Virus record (IMG/VR): IMGVR_UViG_2744054976_000008
DNA: 19,084 bases
Source of the DNA: a virus
Taxonomy: Duplodnaviria; Heunggongvirae; Uroviricota; Caudoviricetes
Strand: one strand, 5' to 3'
Part shown: in pieces, positions 3,392-17,606 of the stretch
Layout: every line of letters starts with the position of its first letter
How positions within the stretch are numbered: position 1 is the first letter of the stretch
Notes under the pieces: generated by a model
Databases searched by the model: none
What the model saw: only the letters and a program-made list of their open reading frames with translations
Told to the model about the DNA's origin: nothing
Translations under genes and position numbers: made by a program

Positions 3392-3437
3392 ATTCGTAAT
3401 GCGAAGGTCGTAGGTTCGACTCCTATTATCGGCACCA
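3392..3437 (+). tRNA. Partial tRNA-Thr(CGU) gene, 3' 46 nt only (pseudo-tRNA / att remnant, ptwF-like)
   Basis: ATTCGTAATGCGAAGGTCGTAGGTTCGACTCCTATTATCGGCACCA matches the anticodon loop (CGT) through the 3' CCA of E. coli tRNA-Thr (thrW) as recalled from memory. No D-arm or acceptor 5' half is present upstream. Confidence 0.7.
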
Positions 3438-3438
3438 T
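3420..3438 (+). repeat. attL core: 19-bp direct repeat CTCCTATTATCGGCACCAT
   Basis: Identical 19-mer recurs at 16108..16126. This copy is the 3' end of the tRNA-Thr fragment and sits immediately upstream of the integrase gene. Confidence 0.75.
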
Positions 3439-3601
3439 CACCTAGTTTTCCCAAGTCAACCCACATCAACAAAATCATTTAAAAACATATATATTACGTT
3501 GTTTTCATACGTTTGAGGTCAACCCTTGTCTCTTGAAATCAACACGCGGTTGGGGGCACAATCAGGGGCATGTTCTGTTCGGTCTAGGAAATGTGCCCCC
3601 A

Positions 3602-4792
3602 ATGATGCTGAATGCCCGCAAGGTTGAAGCTGCGAAAGGAAAAGAGAAGAGCTACAAGCTGTTTGATGGAGGTGGCCTATACCTTCAGGTCGAACCTAAT
3701 GGCTCGCGTTACTGGCGTATGAAATACCGTTTTGCTGGTAAAGAGAAACGATTGTCCTTTGGTGTTTATCCAACAGTCACACTTGCTGATGCCAGACAAA
3801 AACGAGAAGACGCGAAGAAACTACTCGCAGCAGGTGAAGATCCCGGCGAAGTCAAAAAAGCCAAAAAGCAGGCTTTAAATGCAGCGATTGAGACACTTAA
3901 CCCATTCAGAGAAGTGGCGTTAGAGTGGCACAAAATGAAATCACCCAAATGGTCTGAGGGCTATGCTTCCGACATCATTGAGGCATTCGAGAAAGACATT
4001 TTCCCGCATATTGGGCACAGACCTATAGCTGATATTCAGCCCCTTGAACTGCTTGAAGTTCTGAGGTTGATAGAAACTCGAGGCGCTATGGAGAAAGCGA
4101 AGAAAGTCCGTCAGCGATGCGGTGAAGTTTTTCGCTATGCCATCGTAACGGGTAGGGCAATCTACAATCCGGCACCGGATCTTGCCAGTGCGATGCAAGG
4201 ACATGAAGCAGTCCACTATCCATTCCTCAAAGCCAACGAACTACCGGAGTTCTTTAATGCCCTTAATTCTTATTCAGGAAGTCCAATTGTATTGTTGGGG
4301 GCGCATTTACTTATCCTGACAGGTCTACGAACTGGAGAACTACGAGCAGGTGAGTGGCGAGAGGTGGATTTTGATAATGCGGTGTGGGAGATCCCAAAAG
4401 AACGTATGAAAATGCGTAGGAGCCATATTGTCCCGTTGTCAAAACAAGCATTATCCCATCTCAAAAGTTTGAAAGAACTAACTGGGAACTACCCGCTGAT
4501 GTTCCCTGGACGCAACGATCCTAGCAAATTTATGAGTGAAGCAAGCATTAATCAGGTGTTTAAACGTATTGGATATGCAGGGCGTGTTACGGGGCATGGT
4601 TTCAGGCATACGATGAGTACAATCCTACATGAGAAAGGATTTAACAGCGCTTGGATTGAAACCCAGCTTGCTCATTCGGACAAAAACTCTATTCGTGGAA
4701 TTTATAACCATGCCCAATATCTCGAAGGGAGAAGAGAAATGATGCAATGGTATGCTAATTATTTATCTGAGCTAATTGGTACTCATAAATGA
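3602..4792 (+). CDS. int: Tyrosine-type site-specific integrase (P4-like, with N-terminal arm-binding domain)
   Basis: Track ORF 3533..4792 starts at a TTG; the likely start is ATG 3602 (MMLNARK...). N-terminus KSYKLFDGGGLYLQVEPNGSRYWRMKYRFAGKEKRLSFGVYP resembles the integrase arm-type DNA-binding domain. Catalytic signatures: LTGLRTGELR, HGFRHT and a C-terminal tyrosine region (GIYNHAQY). Confidence 0.9.
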   Translation: MMLNARKVEAAKGKEKSYKLFDGGGLYLQVEPNGSRYWRMKYRFAGKEKRLSFGVYPTVTLADARQKREDAKKLLAAGEDPGEVKKAKKQALNAAIETLNPFREVALEWHKMKSPKWSEGYASDIIEAFEKDIFPHIGHRPIADIQPLELLEVLRLIETRGAMEKAKKVRQRCGEVFRYAIVTGRAIYNPAPDLASAMQGHEAVHYPFLKANELPEFFNALNSYSGSPIVLLGAHLLILTGLRTGELRAGEWREVDFDNAVWEIPKERMKMRRSHIVPLSKQALSHLKSLKELTGNYPLMFPGRNDPSKFMSEASINQVFKRIGYAGRVTGHGFRHTMSTILHEKGFNSAWIETQLAHSDKNSIRGIYNHAQYLEGRREMMQWYANYLSELIGTHK

Positions 4793-5613
4793 ATATTTTA
4801 AAAATTAATAATACTGATTCTCTGCTCAGAGATTACTACCAGTTGGATGAAGCTTCAGAAAAAATTGGTTGTAGTGAAAAGGATATACTCTGGTTTGCCA
4901 GAGAACGAGATGTAGAGCTATGCATGGAATTCCATGATGATGAGTATGATGTTTCATGTGGTTTGAAGATTGATGGTCAAATGGATGAGTTCTTATCTAA
5001 TCTGAAATATTTACCACGAGATAGAAATGGCAATATTATGTTGTCAGACTTAAGTTCTATAAGAATCCCTGATGAAGATAATTTAATTGATAAAAATGGT
5101 TTTATTCGATGTTTCATATCCGGTTTATGGGCTGTTGATTATGAATATAAAGATCTGTTAGTTAAGCATGAGGGGCAACCGGATTCCTGGCCTATTCATT
5201 TTCTACTGGCGGGTACGCCTAATATAAATTGTAAGGTAATTCTTTATGTAAATTATGATGAAAAAGAAAATTATTATCTTTTTGAGGTTTTGTGGATTAC
5301 AAAGGTACAGATTCAAAAATTCATTGATATAGTCTTATGCGAACAAAAGCGGATAAAAAACGCCAATAAATATAAATCACAATCTGAGGCGCAAAAACAA
5401 AAACATGCTGTTCCTCGAGCTGAAATACTCATGGCTATTATTTCGCTCTATCATCGTGATATGAGGCTAAGAAGAGAGAGTCCAGCAGCGATAGCTGATT
5501 ATCTTTTTCAACATGCCAGTGAGTTCTGGCCTAAGACCGGAGAACCGCCTTTGAGCTATGATACTGTTGTTAGTTTGCTACGTAGTTGCATGAAAAACAT
5601 TAAGTTTAACTAA
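4789..5613 (+). CDS. Hypothetical protein (274 aa), AT-rich, translationally coupled to int; possible N-terminal HTH
   Basis: Its ATG overlaps the int stop (ATGA at 4789-4792). The ORF is long, uninterrupted and AT-rich, with no motif I can assign; the N-terminal segment LDEASEKIGCSEKDILWFARE is HTH-like by eye. Confidence 0.6.
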   Translation: MNILKINNTDSLLRDYYQLDEASEKIGCSEKDILWFARERDVELCMEFHDDEYDVSCGLKIDGQMDEFLSNLKYLPRDRNGNIMLSDLSSIRIPDEDNLIDKNGFIRCFISGLWAVDYEYKDLLVKHEGQPDSWPIHFLLAGTPNINCKVILYVNYDEKENYYLFEVLWITKVQIQKFIDIVLCEQKRIKNANKYKSQSEAQKQKHAVPRAEILMAIISLYHRDMRLRRESPAAIADYLFQHASEFWPKTGEPPLSYDTVVSLLRSCMKNIKFN

Positions 5614-5738
5614 ATATTAACAATTATTGTGGCTAATGATTTTGGATTTTTTTCATTAGTCACATTTTTCTCATTTATAACCTATGTTTTAATTTTCCGT
5701 GTTGAAGCCAATAGACTTAGATAAACGGAGAATGATGA

Positions 5739-6029
5739 ATGTTATCTAAACATGATAATACTACTTTGCAACGACCTTCAATGGATTCTCTGATCGATAT
5801 GAAGTTTATTACTTCCGATTGTTTATTAAGTGATAAATGGATTTATCGATTGATTTCTCTGAATCGCTTTCCAAAACCTATAAAAATAGGTCGGATGTCA
5901 CGATGGCGCGCTGCTGATTATTATAAGTGGCGAGATGGGTTTGAAGAAAACTCAGGTCAACATTTTGAGGGAATGAGAAATAAGGCAAGAGCAATTAATA
6001 AAGGGAATAGATTATCACCTACTCCCTAA
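5739..6029 (+). CDS. alpA: AlpA-family phage transcriptional regulator / excisionase-like DNA-binding protein
   Basis: GGAG lies 9 nt upstream of ATG 5739. Core MKFITSDCLLSDKWIYRLISLNRFPKPIKIGRMSRWRAADYYKW resembles AlpA/Xis-type winged-helix proteins (FPKPxKxG...W...W). Confidence 0.7.
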   Translation: MLSKHDNTTLQRPSMDSLIDMKFITSDCLLSDKWIYRLISLNRFPKPIKIGRMSRWRAADYYKWRDGFEENSGQHFEGMRNKARAINKGNRLSPTP

Positions 6030-6061
6030 GCCTTAATTGATAGTTAGTAATATTTAACTGA

Positions 6062-6235
6062 TTAGCCTTTAGGGTCAATCCCGCGTGATTGGAGTTCTTT
6101 GCGTAAAATTCTTTTAATCCAAGTTGCCAACGCGCTATCTCCATCTTTGCGCATTTCGTTTTCGAGTTGCAACCTAAAATCGTCGGTAAGACGCATTTGG
6201 AATGGTGGAGAACGTTTCTCTTGTGGTGTTGACAT
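6062..6235 (-). CDS. Arc/Mnt-like ribbon-helix-helix repressor (58 aa); absent from the ORF track (below its size cutoff)
   Basis: Manual minus-strand translation from ATG 6235..6233 to TAA 6064..6062 gives MSTPQEKRSPPFQMRLTDDFRLQLENEMRKDGDSALATWIKRILRKELQSRGIDPKR. The PPFQMRLTDDFRLQLENEMRKDGDS segment parallels the P22 Arc N-terminal beta-strand and helix A (PQFNLRWPREVLDLVRKVAEENGRS, from memory). Confidence 0.55.
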   Translation of the reverse strand: MSTPQEKRSPPFQMRLTDDFRLQLENEMRKDGDSALATWIKRILRKELQSRGIDPKG

Positions 6236-6275
6236 GGTAATTACCCTAGAATATGATGACTACATGGTAATTACC
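6233..6275. promoter_or_regulatory. Twin operator-like palindromes: two copies of ACATGGTAATTACC, each with a perfect 10-bp palindrome GGTAATTACC, 30 bp apart
   Basis: Direct repeats at 6233-6245 and 6263-6275; GGTAATTACC is self-complementary. The first copy overlaps the start codon of the minus-strand RHH gene. The region is the divergent control region between the RHH gene and the rightward early operon. Confidence 0.55.
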
Positions 6276-6303
6276 ATTGTAAGTATAGTTCGCTTGTAAA
6301 AGC

Positions 6304-6338
6304 AATGCCCGATTGTGCGGGAACACAAATCGGGCATT
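6304..6338. promoter_or_regulatory. Perfect 11-bp inverted repeat AATGCCCGATT / AATCGGGCATT with a 13-nt loop (regulatory hairpin or weak leftward terminator)
   Basis: Seen directly. On the minus strand it is followed by GCTTTTAC; on the plus strand there is no U-tract. It lies at the transition from the AT-rich to the GC-rich part of the element. Confidence 0.35.
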
Positions 6339-6366
6339 TAACCAACCGTTATAAGAGGTAACGAAG

Positions 6367-6543
6367 ATGGCTAAACAGAAGTGTACCTGGTTATTTGCGG
6401 CGATCAACCGCAGTCAACGCAATGCCCGTCCTGTGATGTTAAGGATCACCGCAGATAACGAGCGGTCAGCGCGGCGCAGACTTGCCCCGGACTATGTACT
6501 GAGCTTTGCCGGGCGCATTCCCTGCGGAGGTGAACATGCGTAA
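6367..6543 (+). CDS. Small protein (58 aa), possibly Icd-like host cell-division inhibitor of P4-type elements
   Basis: AAGAGG lies 8 nt upstream of ATG 6367. Translation: MAKQKCTWLFAAINRSQRNARPVMLRITADNERSARRRLAPDYVLSFAGRIPCGGEHA. Its stop overlaps the next gene's start (ATGCGTAA). Not in the ORF track (under 60 aa). The family assignment rests on recollection only. Confidence 0.4.
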   Translation: MAKQKCTWLFAAINRSQRNARPVMLRITADNERSARRRLAPDYVLSFAGRIPCGGEHA

Positions 6544-6895
6544 TTATCCGCACCCCGGCGAACGCTGGCAGCATGAACGTGGCTGGACGGTCACGATTAT
6601 CCGATTAATAGAAGCCTCGCCCTCTGTGGCGCTGGTTAATCCTGAATTCAGCTGTGAAGTGCTGATACGTCATGACAGCGACAACCAGCTTTCTTCCTGC
6701 CCTCTGGCATGGTTTGAACAGCGGTATACGCGCCTGTTTGATGTACCGCTCTTTAAGCCTGCACCAGCTCCTGCAGGCGGTAGTGGTTCCGGCCCGCTGA
6801 CACTGCATCCGTCTGTGCTATTTATCCGCTGGCGGGAGCGTAGCATATGGCGTTCTGCTGAGCCTGACGACGGTCACTATTCAAAGTTTCTCTGA
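6536..6895 (+). CDS. Hypothetical protein of the P4-like early operon (119 aa)
   Basis: Track ORF 6506..6895; the likely start is ATG 6536 with GGAGG 7 nt upstream. Collinear and overlapping with its neighbours. Confidence 0.55.
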   Translation: MRNYPHPGERWQHERGWTVTIIRLIEASPSVALVNPEFSCEVLIRHDSDNQLSSCPLAWFEQRYTRLFDVPLFKPAPAPAGGSGSGPLTLHPSVLFIRWRERSIWRSAEPDDGHYSKFL

Positions 6896-6926
6896 CAAAA
6901 TACCGCTGAAAACGGAGTAATCCACG

Positions 6927-7211
6927 ATGAATATTTCAAACGGGCACAACGGTGCTCAGGGCCACACTTTGCCTGAAAAACACAATACCGGTGCTTTTGC
7001 CTATGGGTTGTCAGAGGACAGTTTCGGAAAGCTGACCCGCGCAAGAAATGCCTGCGACATGCTCCAGCTTCTCTTTTCTGAATACCCGTCTCAGGCCGGA
7101 GCACTGGACGCTGGCTGTGCGCATGGTGTCGCCGCGCTGATGGAGTACCTGCGGGCAGATTTGACGGATATTGCACACAGTTGCGCACTGATTGAAGGAG
7201 GTGCCAGATGA
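6927..7211 (+). CDS. Hypothetical protein of the P4-like early operon (94 aa)
   Basis: Track ORF; GGAG upstream; its stop overlaps the next start (ATGA at 7208-7211). Confidence 0.55.
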   Translation: MNISNGHNGAQGHTLPEKHNTGAFAYGLSEDSFGKLTRARNACDMLQLLFSEYPSQAGALDAGCAHGVAALMEYLRADLTDIAHSCALIEGGAR

Positions 7212-7591
7212 ACCAGCCGCAGGTTTCCATTTTCCCGGCAGAAATGACCACCGCGCTTTACCGGCGAGCTATTGCTTCAGCATGGCGGCAGAAAATGCTG
7301 AACGAAACTGGCAGTGATCAGTATGGTCCGCACAGCCTGACGGTGGAGCGTATTGAAATGGCCATTGCGCTGCATATCGAGTGCGTACTGATTAACGAGT
7401 ACGGCGAAGTGCAGGGCGCCGCTGCCGCGCTGGCACTGCTGACTGACATGCTGGAGCCGTCACTGCTAACCGCACCGCCGGTACTGACCGCGCGCGGCTG
7501 TGAAGTGATGGCGGAGATGTACCGCACGCTTCCGGCGGCCTTTGATGACTTCTGCAGTACCGGTGTGACGTTGTATGAGGGGGAAGTATGA
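7208..7591 (+). CDS. Hypothetical protein of the P4-like early operon (127 aa)
   Basis: Track ORF; GAAGGAGG upstream; ATGA overlap with the primase gene start at 7588. Confidence 0.55.
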   Translation: MNQPQVSIFPAEMTTALYRRAIASAWRQKMLNETGSDQYGPHSLTVERIEMAIALHIECVLINEYGEVQGAAAALALLTDMLEPSLLTAPPVLTARGCEVMAEMYRTLPAAFDDFCSTGVTLYEGEV

Positions 7592-10260
7592 CAATACAGA
7601 CGGTTACGCAGATTTCAGCCGCCGCACGGGGGAAATGGCCCGTTATTCTGCAGATGCTGCGTATTGATGTACCTGAAAACGGCAGGCACGGTCCCTGCCC
7701 GAAATGTGGGGGCAAGGATCGTTTTCGCCTTGATGACCTTGACGGGCGCGGGACGTGGATCTGCAGCCAGTGTGGCAATGGTGATGGTCTGGATCTGGTT
7801 AAGCTCGTAACCGGTTACAGCGTCAGAAAGGCTGCGCAGGAGGTGGCGCAGGTGCTTAATGTGCCGGATGTGCAGGAACTGCCTGTTAAGCCTGCCAGAC
7901 AAAAAGCCCCTAAACGCGACATGGGTCTTACCGTGGCGGCGCTGATGAAAGAGAGCCACACGGGAGAAAGCGCCTATCTGACAGAAAAAGGGTTCGCCGG
8001 ATACCCGGCCTCTCTGACCGGAAGCGTGCAGCATATCAGCGGTAAGGATTTCCCTGCCGGTTCCCTGCTGTTACCACTCACGACCAACACCGGAGCCGTG
8101 ACCGGTGCACAGCTTATCGCCCCGACGGGTGAAAAAAGCATACTGCCCGGCAGCACGATGAAAGGCGCGTTTGTGTCGCTCAGCCCGTTACCGTCTGAAC
8201 CACCGGTACAGGTGGTGATTACCGAAGGTTACGCTACGGCGCTGACGGTAAGCCAGCTCACTGCCGGATGCGTAGTGGCTGCCATATCTGCGGGCAACCT
8301 GCCCAATGTGGCGCAGTCGCTGCGGGCACGCTGGCCTGAGGTAAAAATTATCATCGCCGGTGATAACGATTTTCAGGACGGGGGTGAGAATCCCGGCAGA
8401 GCCTTTGCTGAACGGGCGGCAAAAGCTGTTGGCGGTTGGATGACGCTGCCACCAGGAGAGATTAAGGCTGACTGGAATGACTTTCATCGGGAGCACGGTA
8501 TTACCCGTGCCCGTGAAGCCTTTCGCAACGGTCTGGTACTGTGCGGGGAAGGCCGCACGCAACTGCCGCACGGGTTCCGTCTTACCCAGGAATATCTCTG
8601 GTATGAAAAGCAGGTACAGCGCAACGGTGAGACGGAGATCCAGAACGTCAAAATATGCAGCCCGCTGCGCGTGACGGCAATCACCTGCGATGCCGATGGC
8701 GGTAACTTCGGACGACTGCTGGAATGGGAAGATACGTGGGGTGAGCGTCGCCGCTGGGCGATGCCGATGGAAATGCTGAGCGGCAGTGGTGAGGAACTGC
8801 GCCGGGTACTGCTGGTTAACGGGCTGTCTTATATCAGCACCACCGGCGAGGCACGCGCACGCCTGATGGAATATATCTCACTGTGTAAACCGGAACGCCG
8901 CGTGACCTGCGTCAGCCGTACTGGCTGGCATGGTCAGGTTTACGTCCTGCAGGATGAGGTCAGCGGTGAAGGTGCAGAGGGTGTCATTCTCCAGACCACT
9001 TCCGTGCAGGGGCGTGATTTCCGCGTGTCGGGCACAACAGAGGAATGGCGGGAGAACGTATCCCGCTACTGTGCCGGCAACTCCCGCGTGGCATTTGCTG
9101 TCAGCCTGGCCTTTGCTGCACCACTGTTACGGCTGGTTGGTATGGACGGCGGCGGCTACCACCTCAAAGGGGAATCGACAGACGGTAAGACCACCACCAT
9201 GAAAGCGGCAACCTCCGTCTGCGGCGGGCCTGACTACTGGCAGACATGGCGGGCCACCGGCAACGCGCTGGAGGGATGCGCCAGCCGCCGCAACGATGCC
9301 GCCATGATGCTTGATGAGATCCGGGAAGTTGACGGACGCGAGGCAGGCAATATCGCCTACATGCTGGCAAACGGTCAGGGCAAGGGCCGTGCCGGTACGG
9401 ACGGTGAGCTGCGTACCCGTAAGCAGTGGCGCCTGTTGTTCTTTTCAACTGGCGAGTTGTCTCTGACCGAACATGCGGCAAAGGCCGGTGAGCGTACTTT
9501 TGCCGGGATGGAAGTCAGGATGATCCAGATCCCCAGCGATTCCGGGAAATTTGGCGTTTTTGAGGAACTGCACGGCTTCGACAGCGGCAAGGCTCTGGCA
9601 GAGCATCTTGAATGGGCCACGTCCTGCTACTACGGTTCGCCGTTCCGGGAGTGGCTGAAAGTACTGACCGCTGATCTTAATGGACTAACGGCACAGGCAA
9701 AATCGCTGATGAAGGAATATGCTGCCGCCCTGACTCCGAAAGATGCAGGCAATCAGGTGGGCCGGGCTGTGAATCGCTTTGCACTGGTGGCGATGGCGGG
9801 TGAACTGGCAACCCGTCTGGGTATCACCGGCTGGCCTGAGGGTGAAGCACTGCGGGCAACCCGCGTCTGCCTGAACGCATGGCTGAAAGATCGCGGGCAC
9901 ACCGCCAATCAGGAAGATATTGCCGCACTGGAGCAGGTTCGCAGTTTCTTTACCGCGAATCAGTACAGCCGCTTTGCAGACTGGTATGACGAGCGCAACC
10001 GCCCCGGCAATATGGTGGGCTGGCGCAGGGTGGAGAAAGGCAGTACCGCGCAGGGCACGGAAGCTGTCACTACGTTCTATGTCATGCCGTCCGGCTGGAA
10101 AGAAATCTGCAGGGGATTTGACCCGCGCAAGGTGGCGCGTCTGTGCGCAGATCGTGGATACCTGCTCCCCTCCACTGATGGCAAACTCCAGACAACCATT
10201 CGCCCGCCAGAGATGAATCCCCGCAGGCTCTATGTCTTCAACAGCAAGGTGCCGGGTTAA
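7588..10260 (+). CDS. P4 alpha-like bifunctional DNA primase-helicase (zinc ribbon + Toprim + P-loop NTPase)
   Basis: 890 aa. N-terminal Cys4 zinc ribbon CPKCGGKDRFRLDD...WICSQCG; Toprim signatures VVITEGYATA and IIIAGDNDFQDGG; Walker A GESTDGKTT in the C-terminal half. Confidence 0.85.
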   Translation: MTIQTVTQISAAARGKWPVILQMLRIDVPENGRHGPCPKCGGKDRFRLDDLDGRGTWICSQCGNGDGLDLVKLVTGYSVRKAAQEVAQVLNVPDVQELPVKPARQKAPKRDMGLTVAALMKESHTGESAYLTEKGFAGYPASLTGSVQHISGKDFPAGSLLLPLTTNTGAVTGAQLIAPTGEKSILPGSTMKGAFVSLSPLPSEPPVQVVITEGYATALTVSQLTAGCVVAAISAGNLPNVAQSLRARWPEVKIIIAGDNDFQDGGENPGRAFAERAAKAVGGWMTLPPGEIKADWNDFHREHGITRAREAFRNGLVLCGEGRTQLPHGFRLTQEYLWYEKQVQRNGETEIQNVKICSPLRVTAITCDADGGNFGRLLEWEDTWGERRRWAMPMEMLSGSGEELRRVLLVNGLSYISTTGEARARLMEYISLCKPERRVTCVSRTGWHGQVYVLQDEVSGEGAEGVILQTTSVQGRDFRVSGTTEEWRENVSRYCAGNSRVAFAVSLAFAAPLLRLVGMDGGGYHLKGESTDGKTTTMKAATSVCGGPDYWQTWRATGNALEGCASRRNDAAMMLDEIREVDGREAGNIAYMLANGQGKGRAGTDGELRTRKQWRLLFFSTGELSLTEHAAKAGERTFAGMEVRMIQIPSDSGKFGVFEELHGFDSGKALAEHLEWATSCYYGSPFREWLKVLTADLNGLTAQAKSLMKEYAAALTPKDAGNQVGRAVNRFALVAMAGELATRLGITGWPEGEALRATRVCLNAWLKDRGHTANQEDIAALEQVRSFFTANQYSRFADWYDERNRPGNMVGWRRVEKGSTAQGTEAVTTFYVMPSGWKEICRGFDPRKVARLCADRGYLLPSTDGKLQTTIRPPEMNPRRLYVFNSKVPG

Positions 10261-10293
10261 GGCTTTGCGTGAGTCTTATTTATTAAGGGTAAC

Positions 10294-10482
10294 AGGTGAA
10301 ACAGGTGGAACAACCGTATTTTACAGGGCTGAACCTGTTCCACCTTCTGAAATAGTGAGGTGGAACAGATGTAACGCCAGCCAATCCGCTGTTCCACCTT
10401 GTTACCCGCGATGTTCCACCGGTGCAGTGCATATAAATGCTTTACAAAACAAAGCAGTAACACATGTTTCACCTGTTCCACC
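10294..10482. repeat. Iteron array: eight copies of the 9-mer TGTT(C/T)CACC in both orientations; putative P4-type ori/crr
   Basis: Copies start at 10294 and 10304 (reverse orientation), 10336, 10359 (reverse), 10390, 10412, 10465 and 10474. They sit in the non-coding gap between the primase gene and the Psu-like gene. P4 ori/crr is built from a repeated TGTTCACC-type octamer bound by alpha (from memory). Confidence 0.6.
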
Positions 10483-10660
10483 GCATAAGGGACATACAGC
10501 AGACTGAAACAGAGGGCATTTTTATCTGGCTGGCTTTCATAGCCACGTCTGAATAACCGCAATCGCGCGTTGTGCCAGCCACCATACACTGAGCACCGAT
10601 AGTGTGCTTGTGTCAGCCACGACACAATTTACGTAACGAATCAACCCGACAGGAGAAGTC

Positions 10661-11422
10661 ATGAACAACACCGCAGTGAATAACAATCTTTCCTCTTTTC
10701 CGGCTGTAACGCAGCGGGCACTGGAAACCATGAACACAGCCAGAAACGCATGGCTTGAAGCACGTCGTCAGCAGAAAGCGGCAGCGGATAATATTGCGAC
10801 AATCCGCCAGCGCCGCGCTGAAATGGAAGCCACGACTAACGCGCTGAATGAGGAGTGGCGCACGCTGTTTCGTGAAAGTCAGGGCGTAGTCTCAAAGGAA
10901 ATGAAAAAACTGCGTACGGAAATTGCGCTGGGGCGTGAAACGCTTGAGGATTTTGATGAGCTGCTGACTGCTCAGGAAAGCGAAAATGCATTATTACCGC
11001 AGGAAGCCGGGAAATTAGCCGGGCAGTATATCAGCGCACATAACACCCTTGTGGAAATTCGCGCAAAGCAAATCTGGGAAGACTTCATGCAGTCGCATGG
11101 AAAAGCGCTTATTCAGACGCTGAGCCTGCTTAAATCAACAATGGGCCGGGAAGCCAGTGCTGTTGTGGGTGTGGTGAATTCAGTTAATGACCCGGACACA
11201 GTGCTGAAAGACTTTATTCATAAACATATCACCAGACCGGCTCTGGCTAACGATGCGATGCCTGAACAGGACCCGGTGTTTAAACTGGCGGGAGTTGCCC
11301 CGGATTATGCAGCTCTTGCTGATTTCCGCAAAATTCCTTCTCCGGCAGCCCTTCATAAAATGAAGATCCGGCAGGAACGTGAGGAACTACAAAAACGTAA
11401 CCGAGCTGCGGAGGGTATCTGA
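10661..11422 (+). CDS. P4 Psu-like (polarity suppression) or Sid-like coiled-coil protein
   Basis: 253 aa, strongly helical and charged; AGGAG upstream. The segment SAHNTLVEIRAKQIWEDFMQSHGKAL resembles my recollection of P4 Psu; the gene lies immediately upstream of an Ogr/Delta gene as in the P4 late operon. Psu versus Sid cannot be resolved without an alignment. Confidence 0.5.
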   Translation: MNNTAVNNNLSSFPAVTQRALETMNTARNAWLEARRQQKAAADNIATIRQRRAEMEATTNALNEEWRTLFRESQGVVSKEMKKLRTEIALGRETLEDFDELLTAQESENALLPQEAGKLAGQYISAHNTLVEIRAKQIWEDFMQSHGKALIQTLSLLKSTMGREASAVVGVVNSVNDPDTVLKDFIHKHITRPALANDAMPEQDPVFKLAGVAPDYAALADFRKIPSPAALHKMKIRQEREELQKRNRAAEGI

Positions 11423-11694
11423 TGGCATTGAAATGTCCTTTCTGTTCAGCCATTGCACATTGTCGAGCCAGTGTGTACGAAGCCCCCTCTGTAAAGAAAA
11501 CGTACTACCAGTGCCAGAATCTGGAATGTTCAAGCACTTTTACGGCGCTTGAATCAGTGCATACCATTATCACCCGCCCGCAGAAAGAAGAGAATACGCA
11601 GACAGTAGAGGAGGCTACAGACAAAAAAGGGCAGACACTGAATCGCTATGGCTCTGCATCCAAGCTTTCCAGCCGCCAACAAATCCCTGTCTGA
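11422..11694 (+). CDS. Ogr/Delta-family zinc-finger late transcription activator
   Basis: MALKCPFCSAIAHCRASVYEAPSVKKTYYQCQNLECSSTF has the C-x2-C...C-x4-C spacing and YxCxN motif of P2 Ogr / P4 Delta. Start overlaps the upstream stop (TGATG). Confidence 0.8.
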   Translation: MALKCPFCSAIAHCRASVYEAPSVKKTYYQCQNLECSSTFTALESVHTIITRPQKEENTQTVEEATDKKGQTLNRYGSASKLSSRQQIPV

Positions 11695-11709
11695 TTCTCC
11701 CCTACATAC

Positions 11710-11733
11710 TCCCGGTCCTGAGCCGGGATTTTT
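11710..11733 (+). terminator. Rho-independent terminator after the Ogr/Delta gene
   Basis: TCCCGG-TCCTGAG-CCGGGA stem-loop followed by TTTTT, 16 nt after the stop codon. Confidence 0.7.
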
Positions 11734-12312
11734 ACGCCTTTTCTTGGCTGGCTTGAGGACGTATGAGTGCATGTCTATGGCGCATGAAAACGCATGAGTT
11801 CCATGCACCAATTTTGACGCGAAAGCCCTTGTGTTGCGGTTCCTGAGACGATTTACGGGGTGCATGAAAACCATTCTGTTAAGCGAAATGGGTAGGCGGG
11901 CGGGGCTGCGCACGTGGTAGGGCTAAATGGTCAATTCTGGTGCAATTCGCGAAACTCAGTCAGTTTCAATAGATGTAAGTGTTGCTGGGGGAGATTCGCT
12001 ACTTTTTGGTATCCTAAATCGTATGGTTCGATGTTGATCATCTTTTCTTCGCACCTGCAGAGATATCAATTAAATGTGAACAAATAAGAGTCTGGATCTT
12101 CCCATATCGCTAAAACCGCCAGTATTGTTAGGGATGATGCCCATATTATGCGGTGGGGACCAGCGAGCCGCCAACTTGTCAGCGTGGCCTACACAATTTC
12201 ATGCAGGTGACTGAAACTATTACATTAAGTGGTCAAGTGTAGCGAGGATGCGATTGCGCGCAACGATGTAAAGAGTTATAAAAGCATAAAGGATAGTACT
12301 GTGAGGGGGGTT

Positions 12313-13590
12313 ATGAACCGGCAGCCATTTACTTCATCAGCACTTAAGCGTAACTTGAGTGAAAGTGAGAAGAGTTTTTATTTTAATAAAAACAATGTGG
12401 ATAAATTAGAATCATTAATCAGTGATGCTGTTTTAATTGCCAGCGAAAATTTTCGTTCTGGAGTAACTGTAAAGAAAATAAATATCAAAGGACGTTGTGT
12501 TTACAACGCATCTTGTTTAAAAGAAAAACTAATACTTAGACATTGTAATGCAAACTTAAAATGTTTGGAGTCACTTCTACCCAAACAAAGAAATAAAATA
12601 ATTGATGAGCTTAAAATTTATCTCAAAGAAGGTGCACAATTCCGAGTGTATCGCTTAGATATAAAATCTTTTTTTGAATCTATCGATTTGCCTCAGCTCT
12701 TTCAATATTTGCAAGATGAACGGCGTTTATCCAGACATACTAAAAATTTGATAGAATGGTATCTTAAAGCTTGTGAAAGAATCCATTCATCAAAAGGTTT
12801 GCCAAGAGGACTGGAGATTAGTCCTATGTTATCTGAGCTATATTTGGCAGCATTTGATAGTAGTATTCATCGGCATTCAGAAGTGTTTTATTACTCTCGC
12901 TTTGTAGATGATATGGTGATCATTTCAAGTGGAAATGAATGCCCATCGACTTTAATGAAACAAATACAAAGTTTGTTACCCAAGGGATTAAGTTTAAATA
13001 CAAATAAGTTGAAGGTGTCCCCACTTATCGACAAAAGAAGCAAAGGCACGGCAGGTAAAGATAAATTACTCCATAAATTTGATTTTTTAGGTTACTCTTT
13101 TTCTGTAATAGATTCTCCTCTAAGTAACAAAGGTGCTACTTTAAGTGTATATAGAAAAGTAACTGTAGATTTATCTCGTGGACGCATAAAAAAAATTAAA
13201 ACTAGAATAGCAAAAGCTTTCTACTCCTACCATAGAACTGGTGATTTTAAATTGTTATTAGATAGAATTTCTTTTTTAACAAGCAATAGAGATTTAAATA
13301 GGAAGATTAGATCATTAAGTTCATTAGAGAAAGGTAAGGTTAGTACTGGAATTTATTATAGTAATGCAAGATTGGATGTAAATTCTATATCCTTAAAGCA
13401 ATTAGATGATTTTTTATTATATTGTGTTAAATCGAACAACGGACGTTTGCATAGTATTGCGAAACATTCCTTCACTGTAAACCAAAGAAAGGAGTTATTG
13501 CGCAATAGTTTTAGAAAAGGTTTTGTTGATAGAGTTTATAGGAAGTACAATTTCAAACGTTACACTGAGATCACAAAAATATGGCTATAA
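12313..13590 (+). CDS. Reverse transcriptase 1 (about 425 aa; defence-associated RT, candidate DRT3a/UG3-like)
   Basis: Track ORF 12229..13590 starts at a GTG; the likely start is ATG 12313 with GAGGGGGG upstream. RT motifs: RLDIKSFFESID (motif 1/2-like), GLPRGLEISPMLSELYLAAFD (motif B-like), YYSRFVDDMVIIS (catalytic F-x-D-D, motif C), LHKFDFLGYSF. Strongly AT-rich codon usage unlike the flanking backbone. Confidence 0.8.
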   Translation: MNRQPFTSSALKRNLSESEKSFYFNKNNVDKLESLISDAVLIASENFRSGVTVKKINIKGRCVYNASCLKEKLILRHCNANLKCLESLLPKQRNKIIDELKIYLKEGAQFRVYRLDIKSFFESIDLPQLFQYLQDERRLSRHTKNLIEWYLKACERIHSSKGLPRGLEISPMLSELYLAAFDSSIHRHSEVFYYSRFVDDMVIISSGNECPSTLMKQIQSLLPKGLSLNTNKLKVSPLIDKRSKGTAGKDKLLHKFDFLGYSFSVIDSPLSNKGATLSVYRKVTVDLSRGRIKKIKTRIAKAFYSYHRTGDFKLLLDRISFLTSNRDLNRKIRSLSSLEKGKVSTGIYYSNARLDVNSISLKQLDDFLLYCVKSNNGRLHSIAKHSFTVNQRKELLRNSFRKGFVDRVYRKYNFKRYTEITKIWL

Positions 13591-15599
13591 AGAAAAATGT
13601 AAAACTTGATAAGAAGGATTACCTCAGGGCTTTACTATGTGATACGCAACCAGGTGACTGTCCCATCATCTTTTCAAATGATGGATTGTATTTGAACCTG
13701 ACCGAGTTTGAAAATCATTATAAGGAGATTTTGTATTTCTCTCCCCTTTCTTCATTCGTAAAGAAAATTATTAATCCTGCTTTTGATTTGTCTATAAAAA
13801 TAGAAGAACGAGAAAAAGACAAGAAGAAACAAAGCTTTCCGTTTGGCTATTGCATTGTCAAGGATGCTTTTAGTTTAAGATATCTTTCTTTAATTCATCC
13901 CAGATCGCAACTTAATTATTGTGAGTTTTATAAAAATTACTCAACTGTTATAACATTAAATGCGTCAAAAAGTAATTACTCTATAAGATATCCTCGAAAG
14001 GTCGCAAACTCATTCTTCTTATATGAAAATAATGCCTCAGAGAAATATAAAGGAGAGGATATTGAAACAACAAATGATGAATTAATGAGGAAGTATTCAT
14101 CATCTTATTTTTCTTATGGCGGATTTAATAGGATATATAAGTTATTTCAAAGTAAAATGTTTTTTGATCTTGAGAAAAGATTCTCAATAATGTGGATGTT
14201 AGATGTATCACATTGTTTTGATAGTATATATACTCATTCTATTTCATGGGCTTTAAAAAATAAACCTTACATCAGAAAACATGTGAAATATAGCAATCAA
14301 TTTGGTCAGGAACTAGATACGTTGATGCAACGTAGTAATAATAATGAAACAAATGGTATACCTATAGGCTCAGAATTTAGTCGGGTCTTTGCTGAGTTAA
14401 TATTCCAGCGTATCGATTGTAGTATTGAATCAAATCTTTTTGATGAATACGGGTGGGTTAATCACGAGGACTATGTGATATTAAGGTATGTGGATGATTT
14501 TATAGTGTTTTGCAACAATGAAGCAAATGCTGAACTTATCACTAAAACCATTAACGTGAAGCTAAATGATTTTAATCTTCAGTTAAATATCAATAAACTT
14601 AAAAAATATTCTAGACCATTCTGCACTAGCAAGACAGGATTGATCATTAAAGTTAACGAACTAGTGCGGAATCTTGAAGGTAAATTATATAAAAGGATTG
14701 ATGGTGACATTTTTCTAAATAAGATTAGAAGCAAGCATGATTTAAAAGTGAATATGATAAATAATATCAAGTCTATATGTGTTGATAACAAGGTTTCTTA
14801 CACGGATATTTCCTCGTATCTGATATCTTCATTATCAAAAAGATTAATATTAATTATTGATTTCTTTCCGGTGGAAAAGATTAAAGGTGATGTTGAAATA
14901 CGTAAGAATATTAAAGATATTATATTTTTAGTAACTGATATAATGTTGTTTTTCTTCAGTGTTAACCCAACTGTGTCATCTTCATATAAATTATCAAAAA
15001 CAATGGTTATCGTTAATGATTATTTGAAAATGCTTTCAAGTGATTATAGCAGTATTTTTATGACAACATTAATAGATACTGCTGAAAATATCAATTTTGG
15101 TGAAAATGACAATGGTCTTTTTATTGATGGGTTTATTTCCATAGAGAAAGTTAATTTGATATTAGCTGCTACTTTTTTTGGGGATAATTATCTTGTAAGC
15201 ACTTCTTTCTTTAATGGTATTATACATAAAAAGAAATTGGATTACTTTACAATAATCTCATTATTATTCTATTTTAGAAATAGAAAACCTTATCAAGAAC
15301 TTAAACATATTGTTGAGGTTAGAATTAAAGATTTGCTATATCCTGATATGGATTTATTACAATCATCGGAAAAGGCACATTTATTCTTGGATGTTATGTC
15401 TTGCCCATTTGTTTCAATTGAGACAAGACGATTTTTGTACAGAAAATATCTCAAAAAATATGAGAAAAATGTGAATAGAAGCCATTTGGAAATTGAGAGC
15501 GATCTGCAATCTATGCTCAAAACTTATTGGTTTGTCAAGTGGGATGAGTTAGATCTTGTAAAGATGATTGAGAAAAAAGAATTGAAAGAAAGTTATTAA
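13581..15599 (+). CDS. Reverse transcriptase 2 (672 aa, with a long C-terminal extension; candidate DRT3b/UG8-like)
   Basis: ATG 13581 overlaps the RT1 stop by 10 nt. RT motifs: MLDVSHCFDSIYTHSISW (motif A-like), GIPIGSEFSRVFAELIF (motif B-like), ILRYVDDFIVF (YVDD catalytic motif), LQLNINKLKK. About 300 aa follow the fingers/palm region. AT-rich. Confidence 0.8.
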   Translation: MAIKKNVKLDKKDYLRALLCDTQPGDCPIIFSNDGLYLNLTEFENHYKEILYFSPLSSFVKKIINPAFDLSIKIEEREKDKKKQSFPFGYCIVKDAFSLRYLSLIHPRSQLNYCEFYKNYSTVITLNASKSNYSIRYPRKVANSFFLYENNASEKYKGEDIETTNDELMRKYSSSYFSYGGFNRIYKLFQSKMFFDLEKRFSIMWMLDVSHCFDSIYTHSISWALKNKPYIRKHVKYSNQFGQELDTLMQRSNNNETNGIPIGSEFSRVFAELIFQRIDCSIESNLFDEYGWVNHEDYVILRYVDDFIVFCNNEANAELITKTINVKLNDFNLQLNINKLKKYSRPFCTSKTGLIIKVNELVRNLEGKLYKRIDGDIFLNKIRSKHDLKVNMINNIKSICVDNKVSYTDISSYLISSLSKRLILIIDFFPVEKIKGDVEIRKNIKDIIFLVTDIMLFFFSVNPTVSSSYKLSKTMVIVNDYLKMLSSDYSSIFMTTLIDTAENINFGENDNGLFIDGFISIEKVNLILAATFFGDNYLVSTSFFNGIIHKKKLDYFTIISLLFYFRNRKPYQELKHIVEVRIKDLLYPDMDLLQSSEKAHLFLDVMSCPFVSIETRRFLYRKYLKKYEKNVNRSHLEIESDLQSMLKTYWFVKWDELDLVKMIEKKELKESY

Positions 15600-15870
15600 T
15601 CTGATAGAAATATAACTGTGGTCAGTTTCAAAATACTTACGTTATTATTGTTGATGTGTTTTTGCGTTGGCAGTAATACGATTTCGCTGGATCTGAAATC
15701 GGCTTAATTGCTTAAACTTAAGTTAATAAATTTGCTTAAGATCCGATCCTGTTAAGCAGGAGAAGGAGCTTTCAGGTTCAGTTGAGAGTAGTTGCTAGCT
15801 GTTTATAGCTTAACCAGAACAGCTTGTGGTGCTTACACACCTGATGTTGAGAAACTGGCCACACCTACGC

Positions 15871-16006
15871 CCATGCTTCCCATGCTTCCNNNNNNNNNNN
15901 NNNNNNNNNNNNNNNNNNNNNNNNNNNNNNNNNNNNNNNNNNNNNNNNNNNNNNNNNNNNNNNNNNNNNNNNNNNNNNNNNNNNNNNCCATGCTTCCCAT
16001 GCTTCC
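15871..16006. repeat. 9-bp tandem repeat (CCATGCTTC) interrupted by an unresolved 98-nt run of N (15890..15987)
   Basis: Two full units plus one base are visible on each side (15871-15889 and 15988-16006). The right-hand units are exactly in phase with the left (117 nt = 13 x 9), so the gap is consistent with 11 hidden units, about 15 in total. N bases are not biological sequence. Confidence 0.6.
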
Positions 16007-16107
16007 AGAGCTGTAAATGGAACTAAATTGTGGGGCATGTATGGGGGCATATCATTTTAAATAAATTATTATTTTCTTGTTTTTCAGTTTGTTATGTGCA
16101 TGTTTTG

Positions 16108-16126
16108 CTCCTATTATCGGCACCAT
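16108..16126 (+). repeat. attR core: 19-bp direct repeat CTCCTATTATCGGCACCAT
   Basis: Identical to 3420..3438. Here only the terminal 18 nt plus one base of the tRNA-like sequence are present; upstream sequence does not match the tRNA. Confidence 0.75.
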
Positions 16127-16251
16127 TAAAATCAAAGAGTTACCCCATATTTAAATACACCACGTTTCCTCCTGTGCCGTATTTGTGCCATTGTAACCTT
16201 GGCAATTCATCAAAATACTGTTCTGACATCAGGCAGTGCAGGTGCAGACAT

Positions 16252-17597: not shown

Positions 17598-17606
17598 TGT
17601 TCCTCC

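What the first reader, a model, noticed from the sequence alone, without database searches (positions are those of the whole stretch)
3392..16126. Complete P4-like satellite element inserted at a tRNA-Thr 3' fragment, apparently in tandem with a neighbouring island
Identical 19-bp direct repeats (CTCCTATTATCGGCACCAT) lie at 3420 and 16108. The left copy is embedded in a 46-nt tRNA-Thr(CGU) 3' fragment that lacks the 5' half of the tRNA, so the attachment site used was itself a remnant left by an earlier integration. The island to the left (autotransporter plus invertase fragment) fits that earlier event. The right end abuts yagP-paoD. The 19-bp repeats give exact element boundaries and a testable prediction for the excised circle junction.
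Basis: partly seen in the sequence, partly recalled or inferred. Interest (0 to 1): 0.55.

Follow-up and report, generated by a model that had tools for sequence, protein, structure and literature searches.

The report
P4-like satellite with DRT3 at thrW

Summary
Observation confirmed. The 19-bp repeat CTCCTATTATCGGCACCAT occurs exactly twice (3420, 16108). Bases 3392-3437 equal the last 46 nt of E. coli thrW.

The boundaries are proven by comparison. 948 of 5426 complete E. coli genomes have the empty thrW|yagP junction. 18 have the same left island abutting yagP without the element. Strain A287 has the same element (99.92% identical) beside an intact thrW, with flanks only 96-98% identical.

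The element is a P4-like satellite. It has:
- a P4-type integrase with P4-type arm sites at P4 spacing;
- AlpA/Vis-like, Kil/Icd-like and Cnr-like (DUF5375) genes;
- an alpha-type primase followed by TGTTCCACC iterons;
- a Sid homologue, Delta, and a P2-type cos.

It is not "complete" in the seven-marker sense: psu is absent (close relatives have it) and no epsilon/Ash is detectable.

Its cos-adjacent hotspot holds Drt3a, Drt3b and their ncRNA (ACACAC template), followed by a variable 9-bp tandem repeat that lies under the N-mask.

The left island is the end of an Sf/P22-type prophage. Its attP core is the 46-nt fragment.

This is a known kind of element and of low novelty.

The parts
125..613 (+). 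Pin/Hin-type DNA invertase of the left prophage. It is frameshifted after about aa 135 and has lost the C-terminal HTH.
   Evidence: Pfam Resolvase E=8.6e-51. The N-terminus reads MLIGYVRVS, and the sequence diverges after AQGG. It is 84-87% identical to phage invertases.
744..2975 (-). Autotransporter adhesin (743 aa). It is a moron lying between the prophage tail/invertase region and attR.
   Evidence: Pfam Autotransporter beta-domain, AIDA and Pertactin.
3265..3391 (+). attP-derived arm of an SfV/SfII/P22-integrase-type prophage (the attR side).
   Evidence: 97-98% identical to the attP region of SfIV, SfII, SfI and SfV, and 82% to P22. The SfII record annotates it as attP.
3392..3437 (+). 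thrW tRNA-Thr(CGU) 3' fragment (nt 31-76). This is the attR core of the left prophage.
   Evidence: 46/46 identical to K-12 thrW. No complete tRNA is present.
3420..3438 (+). attL core of the satellite (19 bp).
   Evidence: Similarity to genomes that lack the element breaks exactly here.
3553..3599 (.). Three arm-type integrase sites GGGGCAY (3553+, 3565+, 3593-), 115-161 nt from the core and just upstream of int.
   Evidence: Same motif as the annotated P4 attP arm repeats (TTGGGGGCAC / ATGCCCCC), with the same number, orientation pattern and distance.
3602..4792 (+). P4-type tyrosine integrase (396 aa from the RefSeq start; the mechanical ORF starts at 3533).
   Evidence: Pfam Arm-DNA-bind_3, Phage_int_M and Phage_integrase. 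43% identical to P4 Int over its full length, E=9e-111.
4789..5613 (+). 274-aa protein of unknown function. It is conserved in all relatives and sits where P4 has cII, next to int.
   Evidence: No Pfam, PHROG or PADLOC hit. No similarity to P4 cII. The role is not established.
5739..6029 (+). AlpA/Vis-like HTH regulator or excisionase.
   Evidence: Pfam Phage_AlpA 20.6 bits, just under the cut-off of 21. phrog_66 E=1.6e-6. 32% identical to P4 orf88, E=0.001.
6367..6543 (+). Icd/Kil-like small protein.
   Evidence: RefSeq name in L001. 54% identical to the kil part of the P4 'cI' ORF.
6536..7211 (+). Two small ORFs (119 aa and 94 aa) in the position of P4 orf151 and epsilon. No epsilon/Ash homology is detectable.
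   Evidence: phrog_30862 and phrog_14861, both of unknown function. Only a marginal orf151 match, E=0.014.
7208..7591 (+). DUF5375 protein, homologue of P4 orf106 (Cnr).
   Evidence: Pfam DUF5375. 40% identical to P4 orf106.
7588..10260 (+). Alpha-type replication protein. The zinc-ribbon plus Toprim primase part is homologous to P4 alpha, but the helicase part is DUF927 instead.
   Evidence: Pfam Zn_Ribbon_Prim, Toprim_3 and DUF927. phrog_1139 E=1.7e-183. 38% identical to P4 alpha aa 4-311 only.
10295..10482 (.). Eight iterons TGTTCCACC/TGTTTCACC in both orientations, directly after alpha. This is the crr/ori equivalent. The 91-aa ORF at 10232-10507 is therefore probably spurious.
   Evidence: 8 clustered copies; 10 in the window against 3.2 expected, and 0 of 200 shuffles reach that. 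The P4 crr/ori type-1 repeat is TGTTCACC and lies downstream of alpha.
10661..11422 (+). Sid homologue (external capsid-size scaffold). RefSeq names it 'phage polarity suppression protein' or 'septation initiation protein'.
   Evidence: phrog_6165 E=7e-93 over its full length. P4 Sid is in phrog_6165, whereas P4 Psu is in phrog_6366. blastp to P4 Sid is full-length with E=2.5e-11, against only a partial E=1e-5 match to Psu.
11422..11694 (+). Delta/Ogr-type zinc-finger late-gene activator (90 aa).
   Evidence: Pfam Ogr_Delta E=5e-13. 37-39% identical to P4 Delta.
11710..11728 (+). Terminator-like hairpin plus T-run, ending the sid-delta operon.
   Evidence: L009 12319-12337, offset -609. Sequence seen.
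11780..11950 (+). cos region. The predicted 19-nt cohesive end is GGCGGGCGGGGCTGCGCAC at 11895-11913.
   Evidence: Homologous to the cos region of an E. coli P2-like prophage: they share GGTGCATGAAAACCA...AAGCG...AGGCG.GGCGGGG...TAAAATGG. That prophage region in turn aligns to P4/P2 cos with score 66. In about 900 E. coli genomes and 22 IMG/VR satellites, conservation stops at 11914/11915. The exact cohesive end is inferred by analogy.
12013..12192 (-). Pseudogene fragment of a P2-like portal gene Q (aa 276-339 of 346, with an in-frame stop), at the P2 distance from cos.
   Evidence: 74% nt identity to Fels-2 Q, E=3e-17. tblastn 45% identity, E=1e-10.
12313..13590 (+). drt3a (class-2, UG3 reverse transcriptase; RefSeq start).
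   Evidence: PADLOC Drt3a E=1e-130. Matches PDB 9z6y_A Drt3a, E=3.5e-55. RefSeq annotation.
13581..15599 (+). drt3b (class-1, UG8 reverse transcriptase).
   Evidence: PADLOC Drt3b E=3e-200. Full-length match to PDB 9z6y_H Drt3b, E=2e-111, with the YVDD motif present.
15617..15866 (+). DRT3 ncRNA, with the ACACAC template at 15835-15840.
   Evidence: This block is more conserved than the coding genes across three DRT3 alleles that are only about 78% identical in the genes. One hairpin is kept in shape while its sequence changes. ACACAC position. The ncRNA downstream of drt3b with a 5'-ACACAC-3' template is described in bioRxiv 10.64898/2026.05.04.722794. The ends are not mapped here.
15870..16006 (+). 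9-bp tandem repeat (CCCATGCTT)n. About 15 copies if the 98-N mask (15890-15987) keeps its true length.
   Evidence: There are 18.2 perfect copies in A287 and about 8 in PRO_A-1462, both elements being more than 99.7% identical to this one. The repeat is absent from the other DRT3 alleles, from the other fetched loci and from IMG/VR.
16032..16050 (+). Two arm-type integrase sites GGGGCAT, 58-76 nt before the attR core.
   Evidence: P4 has two tandem arm repeats 54-77 nt from its core on the matching side. The sites are conserved in L006 and L080.
16108..16126 (+). attR core of the satellite (19 bp).
   Evidence: Divergence from A287 starts immediately after it.
16188..19084 (-). Chromosomal flank: yagP remnant (LysR substrate-binding fragment), paoD (16641-17597), and the paoC 3' part (17607 onward).

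Best explanation
Bases 3439-16107, bounded by the 19-bp cores at 3420-3438 and 16108-16126, are one integrated copy of a P4-family phage satellite.

Integration. Its P4-type tyrosine integrase recombined a 19-bp attP core, identical to the last 18 nt of thrW plus one base, with that sequence in the chromosome. This regenerated the core at attL and left a copy at attR. Arm-type sites on both sides are laid out as in P4 attP.

Life cycle (inferred from homology to P4). The element replicates from iterons just downstream of its alpha-type primase. Delta turns on helper late genes. Sid redirects P2-type capsid assembly to a small shell. The P2-type cos lets the helper terminase package the element.

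Cargo. The variable hotspot next to cos carries a complete DRT3 defence system: Drt3a, Drt3b and the ncRNA with its ACACAC template. By the published mechanism this system makes poly(dTdG)/poly(dCdA) DNA and aborts infection by other phages.

Neighbour. The element sits directly behind the attR of an SfV/P22-integrase-type prophage that uses a 46-nt core in the same tRNA gene. The two form a tandem array at thrW.

What is shown and what is inferred. Shown: the boundaries, the homologies, the layout, and recent horizontal spread. Inferred: excision, helper dependence, packaging, and activity of the defence system.
For: Boundaries:
- The repeats are exact.
- A synthetic thrW + right-flank junction is found at 100% identity in 948 of 5426 complete genomes.
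- A synthetic left-island + right-flank junction is found at 99-99.7% in 18 genomes.
- The element sits alone at an intact thrW in A287, EC0900 and HS30-1.

Recent mobility:
- 10 mismatches in 12,451 nt against A287, while the adjacent chromosome is 96.3-97.7% identical and differs by a 4-kb insertion.
- Near-identical copies occur behind different prophage ends.

P4 kinship:
- Int is 43% identical to P4 Int, the alpha N-terminus 38%, Cnr 40%, and Kil 54%.
- Sid matches P4 Sid over its full length, and Delta is present.
- The arm sites have the P4 motif and P4 spacing.
- The iterons are TGTTCCACC, against TGTTCACC in P4.
- cos homology and conservation break at the predicted cohesive end.
- A P2-like Q fragment lies at the P2 distance from cos.

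Cargo:
- PADLOC and PDB matches.
- The ncRNA block with ACACAC is conserved.
- A hotspot next to cos is the published P4 pattern (PMC9122126).
- Relatives with the same backbone carry retron St85 at the same place.
Against: - No psu gene is present, although the closest backbones (98.5% identical) have sid-psu-delta.
- No epsilon/Ash homologue is detectable.
- The helicase part of alpha is DUF927, not the P4 type.
- Gene order differs from P4: sid-delta-cos-hotspot follows alpha, and attP lies between the hotspot and int.
- The predicted cohesive end matches P2/P4 at only about 12 of 19 positions. No phage with exactly this cos was identified.
- No excised circle, packaged genome or helper was observed. 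megablast finds nothing in the phage collection.
Confidence: 0.85

Rival explanations
1. It is a decayed, immobile P4-type remnant (a cryptic island like CP4-6) that is only inherited vertically. On this view the repeats are old scars.
For: psu is lost and no epsilon is detectable. A portal pseudogene fragment sits inside the element. Some relatives have a 1-nt deletion in attR.
Against: All ten backbone ORFs and both RT genes are open. The element is 99.92% identical to a copy in a strain whose flanks are 2-4% diverged, and it lies in different neighbourhoods. In this window attL and attR are both perfect. psu-less P4-like lineages are common and are thought to be functional (PMC8628076).
Confidence: 0.12
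2. One reading: the prophage integrated first, and the satellite then used the prophage's 46-nt attR remnant as its attB.
For: The required intermediate exists. 18 genomes have this same island end with the 46-nt fragment directly abutting yagP. The fragment contains the whole 19-bp core.
Against: The opposite intermediate also exists: the same element at an intact thrW. A later prophage integration into the regenerated thrW would give an identical map. No sequence difference in the window discriminates between the two orders.
Confidence: 0.45
3. The prophage end and the satellite form one composite island that moves as a unit between the intact thrW and the 19-bp attR.
For: Tandem arrays at thrW recur, with up to three elements in strain QDFD216.
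Against: Each part occurs without the other, with precise junctions. The two parts have different integrase families and different core lengths, 46 nt against 19 nt.
Confidence: 0.03

Closest known systems
Satellite phage P4 (NC_001609)
   Same: - The integrase family is the same, and the attP core is the 3' end of a tRNA gene.
- The arm-site motif GGGGGCA(T/C), its number and its spacing match.
- The following are homologous: Vis/AlpA, Kil, Cnr (orf106), the alpha primase domain, the TGTTC(C)ACC iterons after alpha, Sid, Delta, P2-type cos, and a variable cargo region next to cos.
   Different: - The target is thrW rather than leuX.
- There is no psu and no recognisable epsilon.
- Alpha has a DUF927 helicase domain.
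- Delta is single-length (90 aa).
- The late operon, cos and hotspot lie after alpha and next to attR, rather than between int and vis.
- The cargo is DRT3 rather than gop/beta/cII.
P4-like satellites lacking psu (Type B#06), and two-marker-deficient Type C, of Moura de Sousa and Rocha 2021 (PMC8628076)
   Same: It is a co-localised set of P4 markers with psu absent and no psu pseudogene at the expected place. [quoted passage not shown]
   Different: I did not run their HMM set, so assignment to a numbered variant is by inference only.
P4 defence hotspot of Rousset et al. 2022 (PMC9122126)
   Same: The variable locus is directly adjacent to cos and lies between the late operon and int in the circular map. 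The same backbone carries different systems: DRT3 in two alleles about 78% identical, and retron St85.
   Different: Here attP lies inside the hotspot-int interval, so in the prophage state the hotspot is at the end opposite to int.
DRT3 (Drt3a/Drt3b/ncRNA; PDB 9z6y and 26cz; bioRxiv 10.64898/2026.05.04.722794)
   Same: There are two RT genes in the same order, both matching the solved Drt3a and Drt3b chains (Drt3b over its full length). A conserved downstream ncRNA block contains ACACAC.
   Different: The proteins are diverged from the solved ones. A lineage-specific 9-bp VNTR follows the ncRNA.
CP4-6 cryptic prophage of E. coli K-12, and the Sf/P22 phages at thrW
   Same: They use the same tRNA gene as integration site and have the same right-hand chromosomal junction (...GGCACCATTAAAATCAAAGAG).
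   Different: CP4-6 IntF is only remotely related to this integrase. CP4-6 and the Sf/P22 phages duplicate 46-49 nt rather than 19 nt.

Membership tests
P4-like satellite (seven markers of PMC8628076) | Integrase | tested here: met
   43% identical to P4 Int over its full length. All three Pfam integrase domains are present.
P4-like satellite (seven markers of PMC8628076) | alpha primase/helicase | tested here: inconclusive
   The primase half is homologous (38%, E=3e-48). The helicase half is DUF927 and not alignable to P4 alpha.
P4-like satellite (seven markers of PMC8628076) | Sid | tested here: met
   Same PHROG as P4 Sid (phrog_6165, E=7e-93). Full-length blastp E=2.5e-11.
P4-like satellite (seven markers of PMC8628076) | Delta | tested here: met
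   Pfam Ogr_Delta E=5e-13. 37-39% identical to P4 Delta.
P4-like satellite (seven markers of PMC8628076) | Psu | tested here: not met
   No ORF has phrog_6366 as its best hit. The 660-nt psu segment present in L006 and L007 is replaced by about 125 nt here.
P4-like satellite (seven markers of PMC8628076) | AlpA | tested here: inconclusive
   Pfam Phage_AlpA 20.6 bits against a cut-off of 21. phrog_66 E=1.6e-6. 32% identical to P4 orf88.
P4-like satellite (seven markers of PMC8628076) | epsilon/Ash | tested here: not met
   No Pfam, PHROG or blastp match of any ORF to P4 epsilon. A non-homologous analogue is not excluded.
P4-like satellite | P2-type cos site | tested here: met
   The region is homologous to P2-like prophage cos, and conservation breaks at the predicted cohesive end. 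Cleavage itself is not testable here.
P4-like satellite | Helper-dependent packaging and capsid size redirection | not testable with these tools
   Needs infection experiments.
Site-specific integrative element at a tRNA gene | Direct repeats equal to the tRNA 3' end, precise empty site in other genomes, and an adjacent tyrosine recombinase with arm sites | tested here: met
DRT3 defence system | Drt3a (UG3) and Drt3b (UG8) genes in tandem | tested here: met
   PADLOC E=1e-130 and E=3e-200. PDB 9z6y chains A and H.
DRT3 defence system | Downstream ncRNA with ACACAC template | tested here: met
   Conserved block 15617-15866 with ACACAC at 15835-15840, as described. No Rfam model exists for it.
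DRT3 defence system | Anti-phage activity and poly(GT/AC) synthesis | not testable with these tools
   Experimental.

The most novel reading that the evidence does not exclude
The perfect 9-bp tandem repeat (CCCATGCTT)n lies immediately 3' of the DRT3 ncRNA. Its copy number changes (about 8, about 15, 18) among elements that are otherwise 99.7-99.9% identical. It could be a functional, rapidly switching module rather than slippage noise, for example by tuning the 3' end, the stability or the read-through of the ncRNA, and hence DRT3 activity or toxicity. A second possibility is that this psu-less lineage redirects capsids with Sid alone.
Probability: 0.07. Interest if true: 0.5.

Novelty: new member of a known kind. 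Interest (0 to 1): 0.2.

Why it matters
It matters little beyond good annotation. The locus is a clean, base-exact example of three already published ideas:
- tRNA genes as re-usable landing pads that build tandem arrays of mobile elements;
- P4-like satellites as carriers of swappable anti-phage systems next to cos;
- psu-less P4-like variants.

It also gives a natural genomic context, with exact att, cos and ncRNA coordinates, for a diverged DRT3 allele. That could be useful to anyone who wants to test DRT3 in its native satellite.

Tried and rejected
- ARAGORN and Rfam at gathering thresholds found nothing in the element. There is no tRNA, and no family exists for the DRT3 ncRNA or for a P4 CI-type RNA. 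At the E-value threshold only a weak symR-like hit appeared.
- megablast of the whole element against 50,697 phage records gave no match.
- A direct short-word BLAST of the P4 cos against the window failed. cos was found only through a P2-like prophage as an intermediate.
- The Fels-2 record shows no GC-rich cos next to Q, so it could not serve as the reference.
- The IMG/VR pattern scan for the cos core returned mostly unrelated GC-rich phages. Only 22 loci were related satellites, and none identified a helper with this exact cos.
- The single genome-contig scan, with a window-specific 40-mer, did not find the source genome. It found only a 3.8-kb contig in a chicken-gut MAG. The intact thrW upstream of this particular window therefore could not be located.
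- I considered that the 9-bp repeat might be alpha iterons or integrase arm sites. I rejected both: the iterons are TGTTCCACC at 10295-10482, the arm sites are GGGGCAY, and the repeat is absent from sister elements.
- I considered orf274 as a P4 cII homologue. No similarity was found.


Full report
**1. The observation**

- The 19-mer CTCCTATTATCGGCACCAT occurs exactly twice, at 3420-3438 and 16108-16126. No other copy exists even at two mismatches, and none is expected by chance.
- It is the only long exact direct repeat that spans the element.
- Bases 3392-3437 are identical to the last 46 nt (nt 31-76) of thrW, tRNA-Thr(CGU), of E. coli K-12. The 5' half is missing and ARAGORN calls no tRNA in the window.
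- To the right of 16126 the sequence is the K-12 junction ...GGCACCAT|TAAAATCAAAGAG, followed by the yagP remnant, paoD and paoC.

**2. The boundaries**

Four natural states of this locus exist among 5426 complete E. coli genomes.

(a) Empty site. A synthetic proA-thrW + right-flank junction is found contiguous at 100% identity in 948 genomes, for example ATCC 8739.

(b) Left island only. A synthetic junction of window 3140-3438 with 16127-16426 is found contiguous at 99-99.7% in 18 genomes.

(c) Satellite only, at an intact thrW. This occurs in A287, EC0900 and HS30-1.

(d) Both in tandem. This is the state of this window, and of PRO_A-1462, MFDS1022581, QDFD216 and LR4.

In every comparison similarity breaks at the edges of the 19-bp core. 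Against A287 the element has 10 mismatches in 12,451 nt (99.92%). The chromosome immediately to the right is only 96.3-97.7% identical and carries an extra 4-kb segment. An element that is 30-fold less diverged than its flank, and that sits behind different neighbours, has moved recently. The boundaries are thus established to the base.

**3. The left neighbour**

- Window 3265-3438 is 97-98% identical to the attP region of the Shigella serotype-converting phages SfIV, SfII, SfI and SfV, and 82% to P22. The SfII record annotates it as attP.
- Upstream lie a frameshifted Pin-type invertase and an autotransporter moron.
- The "island" is therefore the right end of an Sf/P22-integrase-type prophage, and the 46-nt fragment is its attR core.
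- In QDFD216 the array at thrW holds three elements: a CP4-type island with Ag43 and CbtA/YeeU, a full myovirus prophage, and the satellite.
- K-12 CP4-6 uses the same site with an unrelated integrase, IntF.

**4. The order of events**

That is possible, because state (b) exists and the fragment contains the whole core. But integration regenerates thrW, so a satellite-first history (state c) followed by prophage integration into thrW gives exactly the same sequence. Nothing in the window separates the two histories.

**5. What the element is**

From attL to attR, the gene content is:

- three arm-type sites GGGGCAY (3553-3599);
- int (3602-4792);
- a 274-aa unknown;
- an AlpA/Vis-like HTH;
- an Icd/Kil-like peptide;
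- two small unknowns;
- a DUF5375 protein, the homologue of P4 orf106/Cnr;
- an 890-aa alpha-type protein;
- eight iterons;
- Sid and Delta, followed by a terminator;
- cos, then a fragment of a P2-like portal gene;
- drt3a, drt3b and the DRT3 ncRNA;
- a 9-bp VNTR;
- two more arm-type sites, then attR.

Comparison with P4 itself gives:

- Int: 43% identity.
- alpha: 38% identity, primase half only.
- orf106: 40% identity.
- kil region: 54% identity.
- Delta: 37-39% identity.
- Sid: full-length match, E=2.5e-11.
- All.

Further points of kinship:

- The 253-aa protein that RefSeq calls "phage polarity suppression protein" or "septation initiation protein" belongs to phrog_6165, the family of P4 Sid. 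It does not belong to phrog_6366, the family of P4 Psu.
- The arm sites have the same motif as the annotated P4 attP arm repeats (TTGGGGGCAC, ATGCCCCC). They also have the same layout: three sites 115-161 nt from the core on the int side, two direct and one inverted, and two tandem sites 58-76 nt from the core on the other side.
- The iterons are TGTTCCACC, against TGTTCACC in P4. As in the P4 crr, they lie just after alpha.

**6. cos**

- A direct search with P4 cos failed.
- However, 11840-11914 is conserved in about 900 E. coli genomes and 22 IMG/VR satellites. In nearly all of them the conservation stops at 11914/11915.
- The same stretch aligns with the cos region of an E. coli P2-like prophage. 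They share GGTGCATGAAAACCA, AAGCG, AGGCG.GGCGGGG and TAAAATGG. That prophage region in turn aligns with P2/P4 cos at score 66.
- By analogy the cohesive end is GGCGGGCGGGGCTGCGCAC (11895-11913). This is an inference.
- About 100 nt further on, on the minus strand, lies a pseudogene fragment of a Fels-2-like portal gene Q (aa 276-339, with an internal stop). It sits at the distance that separates Q from cos in P2. It is most simply a scar of past recombination with a helper phage at cos.
- Two IMG/VR contigs have the satellite late region and cos followed by an almost full-length Q.

**7. Is it "complete"?**

- Of the seven markers used to define P4-like satellites (PMC8628076), int, sid and delta are clearly present. 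alpha is half-homologous and alpA is borderline.
- psu is absent and epsilon/Ash is undetectable.
- The sister backbones EC0900 and HS30-1 (98.5% identical up to 11381) have sid-psu-delta. Here the 660-nt psu segment is replaced by 125 nt, and everything to the right is only 75-80% identical. The late and cargo module has therefore been swapped.
- psu-less P4-like lineages without a psu pseudogene are already described and are considered functional.
- Gene order also differs from P4: here the late operon, cos and hotspot follow alpha.
- In the circular form the hotspot still lies next to cos, between the late operon and int. That is the published hotspot position (PMC9122126).
- All ORFs are open.

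**8. The cargo**

- Drt3a and Drt3b match the PADLOC models (E=1e-130 and E=3e-200).
- They also match the solved Drt3a and Drt3b chains 9z6y_A and 9z6y_H, and the YVDD motif is present.
- The 250 nt after drt3b are better conserved than the genes among three alleles that are about 78% identical. They keep a hairpin through sequence change and contain ACACAC at 15835-15840.
- This matches the published DRT3 ncRNA, which is encoded downstream of drt3b with a 5'-ACACAC-3' template. In the published mechanism Drt3a copies the template into poly(dTdG), and Drt3b makes poly(dCdA) by protein templating.
- HS30-1 carries retron St85 at the same place on the same backbone.

**9. The masked stretch**

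- The Ns hide the middle of a perfect tandem repeat (CCCATGCTT)n. The flanking copies are in register across the mask: 117 = 13 x 9.
- A287 has 18.2 copies. PRO_A-1462 has about 8, two of them variant units.
- The other DRT3 alleles have none. The repeat is absent from IMG/VR and from all other fetched loci.
- It lies between the ncRNA and the arm sites, so it does not change the arm-core spacing.
- I regard it as a slippage-prone VNTR of unknown significance. A regulatory role is the most novel reading I cannot exclude.

**10. Verdict**

This is a real, precisely bounded and probably active P4-family satellite. It carries DRT3 and is integrated at thrW in tandem with an Sf/P22-type prophage. 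Everything about it falls inside published categories: P4-like satellites and their psu-less variants, cos-adjacent defence hotspots, DRT3, and thrW as a multi-element landing site. It is a new member of a known kind and of low interest.

Noticed in passing
window 15870-16006 (Ns at 15890-15987): The N-mask hides the middle of a perfect 9-bp tandem repeat (CCCATGCTT)n. Copy number varies (about 8, about 15, 18.2) among elements that are more than 99.7% identical. The repeat is absent from the other DRT3 alleles and from IMG/VR.
   Followed up: partly
window 12013-12192 (minus strand): A pseudogene fragment of a P2/Fels-2-like portal gene Q (C-terminal 64 aa, with an internal stop) lies about 100 nt from the satellite's cos, at the P2 distance. 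It looks like a scar of satellite-helper recombination at cos. HS30-1 (L007) has it too.
   Followed up: partly
L060 about 2867-11245 and L062 about 1460-9875 (IMG/VR contigs): The satellite alpha-sid-delta-cos region (90-92% identical to the window) is followed, about 1.8 kb after cos, by an almost full-length P2-like portal gene (86% aa identity to Fels-2 Q). These are either satellite/helper chimeras or mis-joined assemblies.
   Followed up: no
window 6301-6372 (minus strand): A weak SymR-like antisense RNA hit (31.6 bits, E=0.0099, below the gathering score) with a strong terminal hairpin. It ends just upstream of the start of the icd/kil-like gene, on the opposite strand. It might be an antisense regulator, or it might be chance.
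   Followed up: no
window 10661-11422: RefSeq names this protein 'phage polarity suppression protein' in some genomes and 'septation initiation protein' in others. By PHROG family and full-length alignment it is the Sid homologue. The true psu gene is absent from this element.
   Followed up: yes
window 11381-15889 versus L006 and L080: Mosaic structure. The backbone up to 11381 is 98.5% identical to EC0900, but delta, cos and DRT3 are only 75-78% identical. Two diverged DRT3 alleles therefore occupy the same hotspot on near-identical backbones. The psu-less sid-delta arrangement also occurs on a 92% identical backbone (LR4).
   Followed up: partly
L001 18779-18797 and L006 15919-15936: In several sister elements the attR core has lost one G (ATCG-CACCAT), whereas this window and A287 keep a perfect 19-mer. 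In EC0900 the repeat extends 5 nt further left (TTCGA).
   Followed up: no
L005 and L010 (E. coli QDFD216): A triple tandem array at thrW: a CP4-type island (Ag43, CbtA/YeeU, own integrase), a complete HK97-head/Mu-tail prophage with its own integrase, and then the DRT3 satellite.
   Followed up: partly
L081 (DVIU01000229.1, 3841 bp): A contig that carries an exact 40-mer of the window's invertase/autotransporter junction is filed under the MAG 'Candidatus Scatousia excrementigallinarum'. It is probably an Escherichia contig mis-binned into that MAG.
   Followed up: no
window 125-613: The Pin-type invertase of the left prophage is frameshifted after about aa 135 and lacks its DNA-binding C-terminus, so tail-fibre switching in that prophage is probably dead.
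   Followed up: partly
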